A stretch of 64,000 nucleotides of DNA from Mustelus asterias (GCF_964213995.1 NC_135813.1:41354001-41418000); one strand, 5' to 3'. Positions 2,740-47,720 are shown, numbered from the stretch's first letter. Numbers and translations are program-made. Notes: a model not told the origin generated them from the sequence alone.

Positions 2740-3220
2740 GCCTTTATATAATAGCCAAAAGCTTCTGGGCACATAGAAAAGTATACCAAACTTGGAAAAA
2801 GCAATTAGGAGGGCTAACAAAAAGTTTGGTCAATGAGTTGGGTTTTGAAGATTTGTTTAGAGAGGGGTGGAGAGACCGAGTGAGGTGATTGCGGATAGTC
2901 AGACCTCTACAGCTGGAGGCCTTCCTACCAATGGTAGAGTTAAGAGGGAACGTGAAGACAAGGACGCAGTTAGAAATGGAAGTTTTAAAATGGAATAGAG
3001 AAAGGAGACTGGATGCAAGGATGTGGTACTTGAAGCATTAGAGAACAGAGAACCACTTTATGTCAACAGTATAGCATTGATGGGCAAACAGGACTTAACA
3101 TGGACCTGAAACATGCCAGAGTTTTGGACAAGCTAGAGGTTTCAAGACCAAAGGCAGTACTGCAGTTGTTGAGTCTGGAGATGGTGAAAGCTTATTTAAG
3201 GGGTAATAATGCAATTCATT
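2740..3220 (-). mobile_element. Old L2-like LINE 3' fragment
   Basis: Degenerate purine-rich sequence resembling 37800-38760 and, reverse-complemented, 63590-63880. Confidence 0.45.
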
Positions 3221-42019: not shown

Positions 42020-42310
42020 GCACACGGTAGCACAGTGGTTAGCACTGCAGCCTCACAGCGTCAGGAACCCAGGTTCAATTCCGGCCTTGGGTCACTGTCT
42101 GTGTGGAATCTGTACACTCTTTTCAAGTCTGCGTGGGTTTCCTCCCACAGTCTGAACGACGTGCTGGTTAGGCACATTGGCCGTGCTAAATTCTCCCTCA
42201 GTGTACTCGAACAGGCACCGGAGTGTGGCGACTAGGAGATTTTCACAGTAACTTCATTGCAGTGTTAATGTAAGCCTACTTGTGACACTAATAAATAAAC
42301 TTTAACTTTA
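42020..42310 (+). mobile_element. V-SINE type B (small internal deletion)
   Basis: Head, V-domain lacking the cctccgggtgctccggttt unit, and type B tail. Confidence 0.88.
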
Positions 42311-42595
42311 AAGATACTGGATAATTTGCCCTGATCTGCCCATAAGAAAAATCTGCTGCACCACATTATCTCCATTGTGTATAAGGACTTGGTTATCATA
42401 AGCTGAACCTATAGCAATGGTTGATGGCTTTCTAACTTGATCTATTCCGCAGAAATAGTTTTGTACAGTCCGAATGTATTACACGCATGATATGGACTGA
42501 ATTTCATCTGTCATCATAGAGAATTACCCTGCTGTAACCGTGTAACCTGCAGTTATTTTAATAAATAACTGCAGTTTACAGAAAGTTATCTTCGA

Positions 42596-43460
42596 TTGCA
42601 ATGGGATCTTGATCAATTGGACCTGTGGGCTGACGAATGGCAGATGGAGTTTAATTTAGACAAATGCGAGGTAATGCATTTTGGTAGATTGAACCAGGGC
42701 AGGACTTACTCATTTAATGGTAGGGCGTTGGGGAGAGTTACAGAACAAAGAGATCTAGGGGTACATGTTCATAGCTCCTTGAAAGTGGAGTCACAGGTGG
42801 ACAGAGTGGTGAAGAAGGCATTCGGCATGCTTGGTTTCATTGGTCAGAACATTGAATACAGGAATTGGGACGTCTTGTTGAAGTTGTACAAGACATTGGT
42901 AAGGCCACACTTGGAATACTGTGTGCAGTTCTGGTCACCCTATTATAGAAAGGATATTATTAAACTAGAAAGAGTGCAGAAAAGATTTACTAGGATGCTA
43001 CCGGGACTTGATGGTTTGGGTTATAAGGAGAGGCTGGATAGACTGGGACTTTTTTCTCTGGAGCGTAGGAGGCTGAGGGGTGATCTTATAGAGGTCTATA
43101 AAATAATGAGGGGCACAGATCAGCTAGATAGTCAATATCTTTTCCTAAAAGTAGGGGAGTCTAAAACTAGAGGGCATAGGTTTAAGGTGAGAGGGGAGAG
43201 ATACAAAAGTGTCCAGAGGGGCAATTTTTTCACACAGAGGGTGGTGAGTATCTGGAACAAGCTGCCAGAGGTAGTAGTAGAGGCGACTACAATGTTGTTT
43301 TTTAAAAAGCATTTAGATAGTTACATGAGTACGATGGGTATAGAGGGATATGGGCCAAATGCAGGCAATTGGGATTAGCTTAGGGGTTTAAGAAAAAGGG
43401 CGGCATGGGCAAGTTGGGCCGAAGGGCCTGTTTCCATGTTGTAAACCTCTATGACTCTAT
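42596..43460 (+). mobile_element. CR1 LINE 3' fragment with an open 260-aa ORF2 C-terminus
   Basis: WQMEFNLDKCEVMHFG...LYKTLVRPHLEYCVQFWSP...RRLRGDLIEVYK; tail ctctatgactctat. Confidence 0.94.
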
Positions 43461-43891
43461 ATCAACAAGATGTCTTCTTGACCAGGTTGCGCAGGAGAGA
43501 AGCAGATTTATGAATCTGGTTTTAGACGCCTAAACAACCTTTCCAGAATAAAATTATTATAACTAAAAATTATGCTACTTGTGAAAAGCGGGAGGCAAGA
43601 AAATGATTTTAATTGCAACTCAAGTGTTCAGCCACGATGTTCAGGATAATTACTTTGATGGCTGTTCATCGCATTTTTGTTTTGATTATTCTCCTCATGT
43701 TCGGTTTAATAAAATATCAGGTAAGAGTTAAGAGCAGCCTGATCAGGTTGGTGGGACTGACAGCAGAAGGCTGGCGGTGCAGCAAAAGTAATTTTTAAAA
43801 ACAGTTCCAAATAAACTATTTGTTAGAATACTAACCAGAAAGTCAGGAACCTGAGAAGCTAAAAACTAATATTCTGGACAGAAACGACTAA

Positions 43892-44175
43892 CAGCACGGT
43901 GGCACAGTGATTAGCACTGCTGCCTCACAGCGCCAGGGACCCAGGTTCGATTCCCGGTTGGGTCACTGCCTGTGCGGAGTCTGCACATTCTCCCCGTGTC
44001 TGTGTGAGTTTCCTCCGGGTGCTCCAGTTTCCTCCCACAGTCCGAAAGATGTGCTGGTTAGGTGCATTAGCCATGCTAAATTTTCCCTCAGTGTACCCAA
44101 ACAGGCGACTAGGGGATTTTCACAGTAACTTCATTGTAAAGTTAATATGAGCGACCTATGATATTAATAAATAAA
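43892..44175 (+). mobile_element. V-SINE type B ending about 20 bp from the exon donor at 44193
   Basis: Head, V-domain and a diverged type B tail. Confidence 0.85.
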
Positions 44176-44193
44176 ATTATTTTTAAAAATAAC

Positions 44194-44522
44194 CTTTCAT
44201 GGTAGCCGGTGGTGTCGTCAAATTCCATGTGTGCGTTCCTTCATCCATTCCCATGTCGGGGAAATCTGATGGAGCAGGGGAAGGGGGCAGTGGGACAAAA
44301 TTCGAGAGCGGGAGGCCTTGAGTGAATGAGTCCAGGCACATCGAGTCAAAGTATTTGGAGGCCAGCATTTTGGTCTCACTGGTCGAGAGGTTGAGAGTTT
44401 GTACGAGCTGGTCTAAGGTGCTGTTGTATGGAGTCTTCAGAACACAGGTAGCACCAATCCCCGAGGGTAGATAGAAGGTATTTGTCAGCTGCTGGGGGCT
44501 GGCATCAGGTGATAACTTTATC
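44194..44522 (-). CDS. ABCA2: ABCA2 exon (329 nt): [29 protein letters not shown]...[21 protein letters not shown]...PPATMK
   Basis: ORF 44183..44566; acceptor cgtAG at 44524-44523, donor GTTATT at 44193; phase 2/1. Confidence 0.93.
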
Positions 44523-45319
44523 CTACGGTGGAATAAAAACAATGTTATATTCAAGCAAAAATACACATTTGTACCAAATATTTTTTTGGATTCTCTTCAA
44601 ACTATGCTTGCGGGGGTTACAATATAGTTACATTATTTTCCAATTATGTTCAAAAGGCACTAATCATGGGTAGAATCAATCATTCCATACTCTGGGGTGA
44701 ACTTCCCAGCCCTTCCCGCTGAAAGTGACCCCCACCCCCCACAACGGGTCCCCCGGTGACTCAGCTGGCAGACACGACCAGAACATCCCACCAGTGGCCA
44801 ATAACAAGCCACTTCCACCGCTGGAAAACACACCCTGGGGTAGGGCAGGGGAGCCGAAAATCTCAGAGGCTCTGTTCCAACAATATCCATACATTCTAAT
44901 GGTGGAGGAAAGCCATGCATTTTTAATTCCTTATATTTGCCTTTCTGAGCGAGCCTAGCCGTTCATTTTTGAGTTGGCGAATGCTATACTGCGGCCACAC
45001 ACCAACAGAAACCCAGCCAATTGGATCTAATACAGGGTCAGGAGGGTAAGTAACCGTTTTGTTTGTAACGCAGTGACTACAATTCAACACCATGTCATTA
45101 TCTACAGAGCATGAATGGCATTATATAACTGCAAGTCTTTTCTCACGGGAACATATTCCCTCGAGTACCTCCGAGGACAGGAATCCACTGACTGCCCCAA
45201 GACCAATCAAAGGAATATGTAGGGCTGCTTTCTACCAATTTTTCAGTCCTGCAACTTCTATCTATGTGCGCGCAACCAAGGTCTTCCTGAGAATAGACTA
45301 AACGTCAAGAATGCAATTT

Positions 45320-45635
45320 TTTTTGTCCGTTCGTGGGATGTGGGCCAGTATTTATTGTCCATCCCTGAGGGCAACTAAGAGTCAACCACATTGCTTTGGA
45401 TCTGGAGTCACATGCAGGCCAGACCAGGTAAGGGTGGCAGATTTCCTTCCCTAAAGGACGTTAGTGAAGCAGATGGGTTTTTATGACAATCGACAATGGC
45501 TTCATGGTCATCTTTTAATTCCAGATTTTTATTGAATCCTAATTTCACCATCTGCCGTGATGGGATTTGAACCTGGGTTGCCAAAGCATTACCCTGGATC
45601 TCTGGAATACTAGTCCATTACACGCTGCCTCCTCT
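45320..45635 (-). mobile_element. SINE family C
   Basis: ggcagatttccttccctaaaggacgttagtgaa... matches the other family C copies. Confidence 0.82.
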
Positions 45636-45932
45636 TATAGAGTTAACAAAGTGTTTACATATTTTGTATGTATATTGCTATTCAGTGATACAAGCTAAGA
45701 GATCTGTATTGAAGTGAAATTTGCTCTATTGATTTTCTGCTAGTGTTTAAACAGTTCTATTGTAGTTTTTTTTCTACATATAACCAGGTTGTACACTCTT
45801 TCATGCGTAACATGTAAGTGGCAGGAGTCAGCAGAACATTGGATTCTTGCACTTCAGGGACTAAGGAAGAGTTGCTTTTTATGATAAGTGTTTACGGTTG
45901 AACAAAGTCAGACTGTAACTACAGATTTGTGT

Positions 45933-46230
45933 CATAGAATCCCTAGAGTGCAGAAGGAGGCCATTCGGCCCATTGAGTCTGCACCAACAATGATCCCACT
46001 CAGGCCCAATACCCGTAACCTCACATATTTACCCTGCTAATCCTCCTGACACTAATGGTCAATTTAGCATGGCCAATCAACCTAACCCGCACATCTTTGG
46101 AGTGTGGGAGGAAACCGGTGCACCCGGAGGAATCCCACGCAGACGCAGGGAGAACGTGCATTTACACAGACAGTGACCCAAGCCGGGAATCGAATCCGGG
46201 TCCCTGGCACTGTGAGGCAGACTGTGCTAC
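45933..46230 (-). mobile_element. HE1-type V-SINE (type A); a further 3' piece at 46844-46997
   Basis: Reverse consensus. Confidence 0.87.
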
Positions 46231-46483
46231 CCAGTCTTACTTGAGTCTTGGAAAAAAAATACAGAAGACTTCAGCTGAGGTTTCTAACATCCCTCAAATG
46301 ATTGAATACAATATTTAATGGAGTCAAGGGTGCAACATCTGTAGAAGCAACAAGCTTTGTTGAGCTAAATAATCTCTATTTCAGCACTTCCTCAACTCTT
46401 TATGTGCTCCTCATTTTCTGTGACGCCTTGTAATCAATTAAGCTATAACGTGTGCTTTTTAAAAGTCTCTTCTAACCTCATAC

Positions 46484-46586
46484 CTGTACTCATTTCTCTC
46501 TTCATTTGCATATGGTATAAAGTTTCCTCGCGGTTGAGTATAATTGTGGTACTGAGATGGAGAAAGTATCAGAGGAGGCAAGTCAC
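46484..46586 (-). CDS. ABCA2: ABCA2 exon (103 nt): (G)[33 protein letters not shown](R)
   Basis: Translated by hand; acceptor ttccAG at 46588-46587, donor GTATGA at 46483; phase 1/2. Confidence 0.95.
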
Positions 46587-47269
46587 CTGGAAAAACAGAG
46601 ATAAATCAGGTAAATATCCCACAGGTGAAAATATAAAGGAAGTCATGTAAAATGGCAATCCCAAAGAATAAATCTCAGCTCGACTCAAAGACATCCATTT
46701 AGGTTTTTTTGAACCTGTCAATATTGTCAGGAAAATTGCAATGACATAAAAATATTAGGAAGATTCAAAAGATTGGATTATTTTCTGCTGTGTATATATA
46801 TTTAAAAACTGGGAAAATGCAACTTGCTTAAGGTCGGGACAGATCATAGAATCCCTATAGTGCAGAAGGAGGCCATTCTGTCCATCGCGTCTGTACCAAC
46901 AGCAATCCTACCCAGGCCCTATCCCCATAACCCCACTAATCCCTCTGACACTAAGGGGCAATTTAGCATGGCCAATCCACCTAACCTGCACATCATTGGA
47001 GCCTATGTCACACAGATGTCAATGTTAAGGAGCCAGTGTCTTTGCTATGTTGACATGTTTAGCAATACTTTATTGTTGTTCATTTTATTGTTTTATTTTA
47101 TTTAAAATCATCACAAAATGCTGGGACATCATTCGTTGGATTTTAGCCGTTCTACACCCAAATTGCAAAAATAGAGTTAGGGCGATTGTTTCAAGTTTCC
47201 CTTCTAGAATTTGGAATAACCTGGTGTTTACCATCAGATGTGCCCTGAACAAGACATAACATCTTTACT

Positions 47270-47720
47270 TGAAGTTTTAAAGTTTATTTAATAGCGTCAC
47301 AAGATTCAGTTTATGATAACCAAGTCCTTATACACAATAGAGACATAATGTGGTGCAACAGATTTTTCTTATGGGCAGATCAGGGCAAATTATCCAGTAT
47401 CTTTAAAGTTAAAGTTTATTTATTATTGTCACAAGTAGGCTTACATTAACACTGCAATGAAATTATTGTCAAAATCCTCTGGACGCCACATTCCGCGCCT
47501 GTTCGGTACACTGTGGGGGAATTTAGCATGGCCAATGCACCTAACCAGCACGTCTTTCGGACTGTGGGAGGAAACTGGAGAACCTGGAGGAAATCCTGCA
47601 GACACAGGGAGAACGTGCAGACTCCACACAGACAGTGACCCTAGCCGGGAATCGAACCCGGGTCACTGGTGCTCTGAGGCAGCAGTGCTAACTACTGTGC
47701 CATCCTAACCACTGTGCCGT
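47270..47720 (-). mobile_element. V-SINE type B carrying a copy of the flank of the 42020 SINE and a second tail
   Basis: 47404-47720 is the SINE; 47302-47403 is the reverse complement of 42311-42410; 47270-47302 is an extra type B tail. Confidence 0.9.

What the first reader, a model, noticed from the sequence alone, without database searches (positions are those of the whole stretch)
42020..47720. Templated inverted duplication: a SINE tail plus about 100 bp of non-SINE flank copied 5 kb away
Seen: the 100 bp after the + strand type B SINE (42311-42410, aagatactggataatttgccctgatctgcccataagaaaaatctg...) recurs as a reverse complement at 47302-47403, directly behind the minus-strand SINE. By my count the copies differ by about 4 substitutions and one 2-bp indel. 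The second copy is followed by another SINE tail (47270-47302, cttgtgacgctattaaataaacttt on the minus strand). The two SINE bodies differ, because the 42020 copy has a deletion the other lacks. Inference: this fits a repair or replication template switch between neighbouring inverted SINEs (invade the partner, copy through its flank, return) better than ordinary retrotransposition. 3' transduction is the alternative explanation.
Basis: partly seen in the sequence, partly recalled or inferred. Interest (0 to 1): 0.72.

Follow-up and report, generated by a model that had tools for sequence, protein, structure and literature searches.

The report
Repair scar copied between neighbouring SINEs
A 132-base piece (the end of one jumping-gene relic plus 100 bases of neighbouring DNA) sits as a backwards copy inside a sister relic 5 kb away, likely left by DNA break repair, and the same layout recurs elsewhere in this genome, where it could be mistaken for DNA carried along by jumping genes.

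Summary
SINE A's tail plus 100 bp of flank (42279-42410) recurs inverted inside SINE B (47435-47304), followed by a 22-nt second tail. The flank has two hits genome-wide, and a read contig bridges the distal junction. Identity changes as a step, not a gradient: bodies differ at 34/204 non-CpG sites, flanks at 4/110, which argues against 3' transduction. Exons inside and outside the arms share one strand, so there is no inversion.

The layout recurs. Tight patterns gave 34 other SINE+spacer+short-tail sites. Eight have a SINE-preceded donor: seven in cis at 4-54 kb, one on another contig. Second tails are short (15/16 at most 36 nt, 6.4 expected), with no hairpin hotspot.

Best reading (0.7): a break or stalled fork near B's 3' end, priming on A through 26 nt of perfect SINE homology, copying past A's end, then end-joining. 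This is a SINE-homology-primed variant of repair-mediated duplication (Pace 2009), whose filter excluded such cases. No pre-event allele was seen, and no function. This scan noted a similar single case in a mammal (e1-9162731).

The parts
42020..42310 (+). SINE A (inferred donor): tRNA-type SINE of the window's 'type B' family, with an 18-19-nt internal deletion; tail at 42279-42310
   Evidence: the family name V-SINE/HE1-related is recalled, not tested
42253..42278 (+). 26 nt identical in A and B (B 47461-47436) just 5' of the duplicated tail; inferred priming interval
   Evidence: alignments; role inferred
42311..42410 (+). non-SINE flank of A, source of the copied segment
   Evidence: 2 hits genome-wide
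47436..47719 (-). SINE B body (inferred recipient), not derived from A; its head is duplicated at 47703-47718
47304..47435 (-). 132-nt insert: copy of A's tail (47435-47404) plus A's flank (47403-47304)
   Evidence: contigs
47302..47304 (-). return junction: 2-nt microhomology if 47304 is a later C-to-T change, otherwise a 1-nt filler
47272..47303 (-). short second SINE tail (22 nt plus terminal repeats), inferred to be B's original 3' end
   Evidence: D7, I14; bridged by X1 contig 46995-47388
47744..47959 (-). ABCA-family transporter exon outside the arms (216 nt, AG/GT)
   Evidence: best PDB match ABCA1, E 1.5e-9; 'ABCA2' is recalled
46484..46586 (-). exon between the arms (103 nt, AG/GT), same strand as the outer exons
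44194..44522 (-). exon between the arms (329 nt, AG/GT), same strand as the outer exons

Best explanation
The 132-nt segment inside SINE B is an inverted copy of SINE A's tail and 100 bp of flank, most likely made at DNA level when a broken or stalled end near B's 3' end primed on A through shared SINE sequence, copied past A's end, and was then end-joined to B's leftover short tail. Shown: the copy, its limits, its two-copy status, B's unrelated body, no inversion, and recurrence with mostly nearby donors. Inferred: B existed first; the break lay about 22 nt (plus terminal repeats) from its end; priming used the 26-nt perfect match; the return used 0-2 nt of microhomology. Hypothesis: such events stay visible mainly when the leftover tail is too short (about 36 nt or less) to re-anneal by homology, since longer leftovers would resolve as clean gene conversion. 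No function is proposed.
For: Two hits genome-wide. Step in identity with 0 shared non-majority variants. B body 7.0% private vs 1.8% per lineage in the flank (p=0.008). 34 distinct other SINE+non-SINE-spacer+short-tail sites (reversed-pattern controls 0). Donors with a SINE tail, the same flank and no second tail: 5 of 34 within about 10-11 kb (L011 inverted 4.0 kb, L022 inverted 9.0 kb, L057 inverted 9.65 kb, L088 direct 5.3 kb, L061 direct 7.5 kb), and 3 of 8 searched genome-wide (L012 direct 54 kb, L075 inverted 43 kb, L063 other contig). In 6 of 7 other pairs tested the bodies share no excess of rare variants. Return junctions show repair marks: 6-nt microhomology (L011), about 11 nt with one mismatch (L088), a short filler (L012). 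Second tail at most 36 nt in 15 of 16 vs 6.4 expected. Size, distance and junction type match repair-mediated duplications (PMC2671141).
Against: No allele with SINE B but without the insert was seen in 4 runs, so order and direction are inferred. The 'recipient is older' test is significant only for the window pair; 7 of 7 other pairs are not (p 0.16-0.93), and in L061 and L063 the flank divergence equals or exceeds the body's, so those copies may be as old as the SINE insertion. L057 shares 3 rare variants (null P=0.005) and a 5' deletion with its donor, which looks like a whole-body copy. No donor was found for 3 of 8 spacers searched genome-wide, 2 were uninformative, and 21 sites were checked only locally. 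The window's return junction has little microhomology. The 36-nt cut-off was chosen after seeing the data. Five of the eight donors came from a local-only search, which biases distances downward.
Confidence: 0.7

Rival explanations
1. Insertion-coupled template jump: reverse transcription of a new SINE starts at the tail, stalls after 12-36 nt, jumps to DNA just 3' of a nearby SINE, copies flank and tail, then finishes on SINE RNA. The end product looks the same, but B is born with the insert.
For: Second tails are short. In several pairs the copy looks as old as the recipient SINE. L057 looks like a whole-body copy. The window's junction lies at the loop of a predicted 3' RNA hairpin.
Against: The window's B body is older than the copy (p=0.008). 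With a looser pattern, junctions spread over 12-49 nt with no peak at the hairpin, and the hairpin is no more stable than shuffles (z=0.46). It needs two switches and a non-homologous jump that happens to land 50-120 nt behind a same-family SINE.
Confidence: 0.15
2. Reverse direction or later conversion: B's tail-spacer-tail arose by an independent short 5'-truncated insertion, and A acquired the flank from B.
For: Direction was not shown by any outgroup allele. Chance placement of a lone short tail behind a SINE could give up to about 3 sites per 31-nt spacing window and may explain some donor-less sites.
Against: The copy would have to stop within 2 nt of the short tail's start. All 8 other donors lack a second tail. 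Both 'lone' tails in 744 kb proved to be parts of other SINE rearrangements. In organism E no listed site has both E copies agreeing against both own copies, which later homogenisation would leave (table 3).
Confidence: 0.07
3. 3' transduction: a read-through transcript of A was retrotransposed to the B site.
For: Element-tail-flank-tail is the shape of a transduction. The flank has no T4 run before about 42459, so Pol III read-through is possible. One donor is on another contig (L063).
Against: B's body is not A's. Seven of 8 other donors lie within 54 kb in a 3.68-Gb genome. A lacks the second tail from which the RNA would prime.
Confidence: 0.04
4. Inversion of the 5 kb between the arms with staggered-break duplication, or an assembly artefact.
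For: Inverted duplicates can mark inversion breakpoints (recalled). No long read was seen.
Against: Exons inside and outside the arms are all on the minus strand with AG/GT ends and matching phases. Separate A-type and B-type contigs of equal depth occur in X1, and both types appear in organism E. The copies differ by 4-5 substitutions and an indel.
Confidence: 0.02

Closest known systems
Repair-mediated duplications (Pace, Sen, Batzer, Feschotte 2009, PMC2671141; parts 1-6 of 8 read, i.e. the main text; supplements not opened)
   Same: Insert of 50 bp or more inside a transposable element; single donor; donor within 5 kb (4.9 kb here); size near their mean of 162 bp; microhomology or filler junction without polyA; attributed to SDSA.
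   Different: Here the entry is homologous (same SINE position in donor and recipient), so the tail is duplicated and the first fragment is full length. Their filter dropped fragments over 95% of consensus length and excluded cases where part of a repeat was copied. Sharks were not among their species, and several donors here lie beyond 5 kb.
DUP-TRP/INV-DUP two-switch model (Grochowski et al. 2024, PMC11293582; passages read)
   Same: First switch by homology between intrachromosomal inverted repeats; second junction by NHEJ or MMBIR with 1-9 nt microhomology, a blunt end or a 1-2 nt insertion.
   Different: Their repeats are kb-sized and 98% or more alike and the products span kb to Mb. Here the repeats are 300-bp SINEs about 83% alike, the product is 132 nt, and direct donors also occur.
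FoSTeS/MMBIR, long-tract gene conversion, one-sided invasion (review PMC4888836, passages read; Belmaaza and Chartrand 1994 seen only as a reference entry; Richardson and Jasin 2000 recalled, not held)
   Same: One end primes on an ectopic template, synthesis runs past the homology, and the event ends by non-homologous joining.
   Different: Those come from experimental or clinical systems; this is a fixed germline scar in a recurring natural series. The enzymes involved are untested.
3' transduction by non-LTR retrotransposons (recalled)
   Same: Element, tail, unique flank, second tail.
   Different: The recipient body is not the donor's, donors are local, and the second tail is a SINE 3' end rather than polyA.

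Membership tests
Repair-mediated duplication (Pace 2009) | Insert of 50 bp or more interrupting a transposable element | tested here: met
   132 nt between B's body and B's short tail
Repair-mediated duplication (Pace 2009) | Single donor elsewhere in the genome | tested here: met
   2 hits
Repair-mediated duplication (Pace 2009) | Donor within 5 kb | tested here: met
   4,891 nt between arms (I12)
Repair-mediated duplication (Pace 2009) | Junction with microhomology, filler or deletion and no polyA | tested here: met
   2-nt microhomology or 1-nt filler; weak on its own
Repair-mediated duplication (Pace 2009) | Operational filter: neither element fragment exceeds 95% of consensus and no repeat part is copied | tested here: not met
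   First fragment covers majority positions 8-299 and the donor's tail is copied (methods). Hence a variant, not a plain member.
Repair-mediated duplication (Pace 2009) | Pre-insertion allele in a related genome | tested here: inconclusive
   Organism E appears to carry both copies; X3 shows only an A-type copy and no cover of B's flank; X7 shows neither
3' transduction | Recipient element body copied from the source | tested here: not met
   34/204 vs 4/110, p=0.0005; 0 shared variants
3' transduction | Offspring dispersed relative to the source | tested here: not met
   7 of 8 other donors within 54 kb, with partial search bias
Inversion with staggered-break duplication | Intervening segment reversed | tested here: not met
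   Four exons on the minus strand, in order
SDSA versus FoSTeS/MMBIR versus polymerase-theta joining | Genetic dependence on RAD51, POLD3 or POLQ | not testable with these tools
   Needs a reporter assay

The most novel reading that the evidence does not exclude
SINE-homology-primed flank capture is a genome-wide mutational class of several hundred events in this genome that mimics 3' transduction. The sharp deficit of second tails over about 36 nt is a fossil read-out of the shortest homology a vertebrate germline needs to finish repair by annealing; alternatively, part of the class is made during SINE insertion by a reverse-transcriptase jump onto a neighbouring copy's flank.
Probability: 0.3. 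Interest if true: 0.65.

Novelty: new variant of a known kind. Interest (0 to 1): 0.4.

Why it matters
The single locus is a neutral-looking intronic scar. The series matters more. It shows dense SINE families copying short unique flanks between neighbours by a route that the standard screen for repair-mediated duplications filtered out. It warns that element-tail-flank-tail structures are not by themselves evidence of 3' transduction. And it offers a testable link between leftover homology length and repair outcome in a germline with no experimental system.

Tried and rejected
Hairpin hotspot: the first pattern put 7 of 9 junctions at the SINE's 3' stem-loop, but this was imposed by the pattern; looser patterns gave 12-49 nt, and the fold is no better than shuffles. 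Identity gradient: rejected; random copies are also close in the last 44 nt (P of at most 1 difference = 0.054). Inversion: rejected. Dispersed repeat: rejected. Later homogenisation of the arms: no supporting site among the rows listed. circRNA or exon loop-out: the arms enclose two exons of 432 nt in frame, and the copy strengthens a predicted duplex (-605 vs -429 kcal/mol), but another SINE pairs with B's body equally well (-431); no RNA holder listed, so untested. Donor searches without result: L005, L076, L079 (self only); L058 (repeat); L010 (15-copy segmental array; the 3 copies aligned all carry the second tail). X7 gave no cover of the flank and X3 none of B's distal flank; holes prove nothing. 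The PDB search with exon 44186-44596 found nothing. Paper searches (listings only unless stated) returned no title on a SINE-anchored tail-plus-flank class; subscription papers are mostly not held. PMC5499810 (passages) did not name this SINE family; PMC7407515 (passages) added only general background. Dropped before counting 34 sites: SINE-only spacers (16 of 25, 14 of 30, 6 of 18), three duplicates (L078, L099, L100), and 9 of 39 matches that came without loci.

Full report
Observation. SINE A lies on the plus strand at 42020-42310 and SINE B on the minus strand from about 47719. A's tail and the next 100 bp recur in B's orientation at 47435-47304, and a second, 22-nt SINE tail follows at 47303-47282 plus terminal repeats. 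The exact alignment has 4 substitutions and one 2-bp indel, plus one mismatch at the junction. The flank has no other match in the window and two hits in the 3.68-Gb genome.

Assembly. Reads were laid on 46995-47445 only. In X1, possibly the assembled sample, one contig covers 46995-47388 without differences and bridges the distal junction; an A-type contig of similar depth leaves at 47305; the stretch identical in both copies is collapsed at double depth. Organism E (X13) has a contig aligned over 47280-47431 that keeps B's state at 47339, and a separate A-type contig. Only 24 letters lie distal to the junction, below the tool's 31-letter bridging rule, so sharing with E is suggestive. E differs from this genome by about 10% in the distal flank, so the event is probably old. 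X3 shows one A-type path and no cover of B's flank; X7 shows neither. No pre-insertion allele was seen.

Context. The pair lies in introns of an ABCA-family transporter on the minus strand (Pfam hit; ABCA1 as best PDB match; ABCA2 is my recollection). Exons at 47959-47744, 46586-46484, 44522-44194 and from 41685 are all on the minus strand, so the 5 kb between the arms is not inverted.

Body versus flank. A and B are no more alike than other copies until the last 45 nt or so. They differ at 34 of 204 non-CpG body sites and 4 of 110 flank sites (p=0.0005) and share no non-majority variant. Among 66 near-full background copies the median pair difference is 0.106. B's body has 14 private changes in 201 clean columns, against 1.8% per lineage in the flank (p=0.008). 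B is therefore likely older than the copy and is not a retrocopy of A. The last private difference leaves 26 identical bases (A 42253-42278) before the duplicated tail, the likely priming interval.

Recurrence. Three exact patterns for tail-spacer-tail gave 25, 39 and 18 matches, with reversed-pattern controls at 0; 73 loci were returned. After removing SINE-only spacers and three duplicates, 34 distinct sites have 40 nt or more of non-SINE spacer. A search of about 10-11 kb each side found a SINE-preceded donor for 5 of 34 (alignments). L061 and L088 have repeat-derived spacers, but the local copy is the best match in the fetched set. Genome-wide searches of 8 further spacers found donors for 3 (54 kb direct, 43 kb inverted, another contig), none for 3, and were uninformative for 2. 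All 8 donors carry the SINE tail and the flank but no second tail. Counting the window, 5 are inverted, 3 direct and 1 on another contig. Return junctions include a 6-nt microhomology (L011), an 11-nt imperfect match (L088) and a short filler (L012). A rough extrapolation from 95 tails in 744 kb and exact-match rates suggests several hundred such sites; chance placement could add up to about 3 per spacing window against 16 and 10 seen, and both lone tails behind that estimate were parts of other rearrangements.

Second-tail length. The first pattern suggested a hotspot at the predicted 3' hairpin, but looser patterns gave 12-49 nt with no peak. The tails are short: 15 of 16 are 36 nt or less against 6.4 expected for uniform breaks (P=5e-6; cut-off chosen after the fact). 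One reading is that longer leftovers re-anneal by homology and leave only invisible gene conversion. This is a hypothesis.

Evidence against the simple model. The age test is significant only for the window pair; seven other pairs are not, and some copies look as old as their SINE. L057 shares three rare variants and a 5' deletion with its donor. An insertion-coupled template jump therefore remains possible for part of the class (0.15). Break repair and fork switching give the same product.

Comparison. The locus meets the size, single-donor, distance and junction features of repair-mediated duplications (PMC2671141, main text read; supplements not opened and could hold similar cases). It fails their operational filter, which dropped near-full-length first fragments and copied repeat parts. 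The homology-first, microhomology-second logic is that of DUP-TRP/INV-DUP (PMC11293582, passages) and of MMBIR-type switches (PMC4888836, passages), at far smaller scale. Eight paper searches listed no title on this subclass, within a library that lacks most subscription papers. Earlier notes of this scan record a similar single case in a mammal and a backwards flank copy in shark DNA; I did not test them.

Verdict. A real, old, probably neutral duplication, and one example of a recurring SINE-homology-primed variant of a known repair product. Interest 0.4.

Noticed in passing
window 47687-47718 (-): SINE B's head is duplicated (about 16 nt), and the element starts about 25 nt from the 5' splice site of exon 47959-47744.
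   Followed up: no
window 44154-44193: A plus-strand SINE tail ends about 15 nt from the 5' splice site of exon 44522-44194.
   Followed up: no
window 46586-46484 and 44522-44194: The two exons between the arms total 432 nt, so joint skipping or circularisation would keep the frame; several inverted SINE pairs flank them.
   Followed up: partly
L008, L018-L021, L023-L027, L067-L070, L081, L082 (contigs C9, C19, C70, C72): Tandem arrays of SINE 3' ends with about 61-68-nt and 123-nt units, clustered on a few contigs.
   Followed up: no
L115:5545-5970: A second SINE type (HE1-like, name recalled) inserted inside the 3' end of a type B SINE, splitting it just before the last 21 nt.
   Followed up: partly
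L118:4290-4525: An antisense SINE 3' half joined directly to a 29-nt sense tail; resembles twin priming or a reverse-direction switch.
   Followed up: no
L057 and its donor 9.65 kb away: Recipient and donor share a 5' deletion and three rare variants, suggesting the whole body was copied or converted.
   Followed up: partly
L047-L050 (C18, 15.2-16.0 Mb): One tail-spacer-tail structure is carried in a 15-copy segmental array with units about 30-40 kb apart in both orientations.
   Followed up: partly
L011:1527-1895 and 2769-3132: A 370-bp direct duplication (94%) copied the spacer, second tail and downstream flank after the first event.
   Followed up: no
window 42590-43460 (+): LINE reverse-transcriptase 3' fragment with a 269-aa open frame (CR1-type by recall) just downstream of A's flank.
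   Followed up: no
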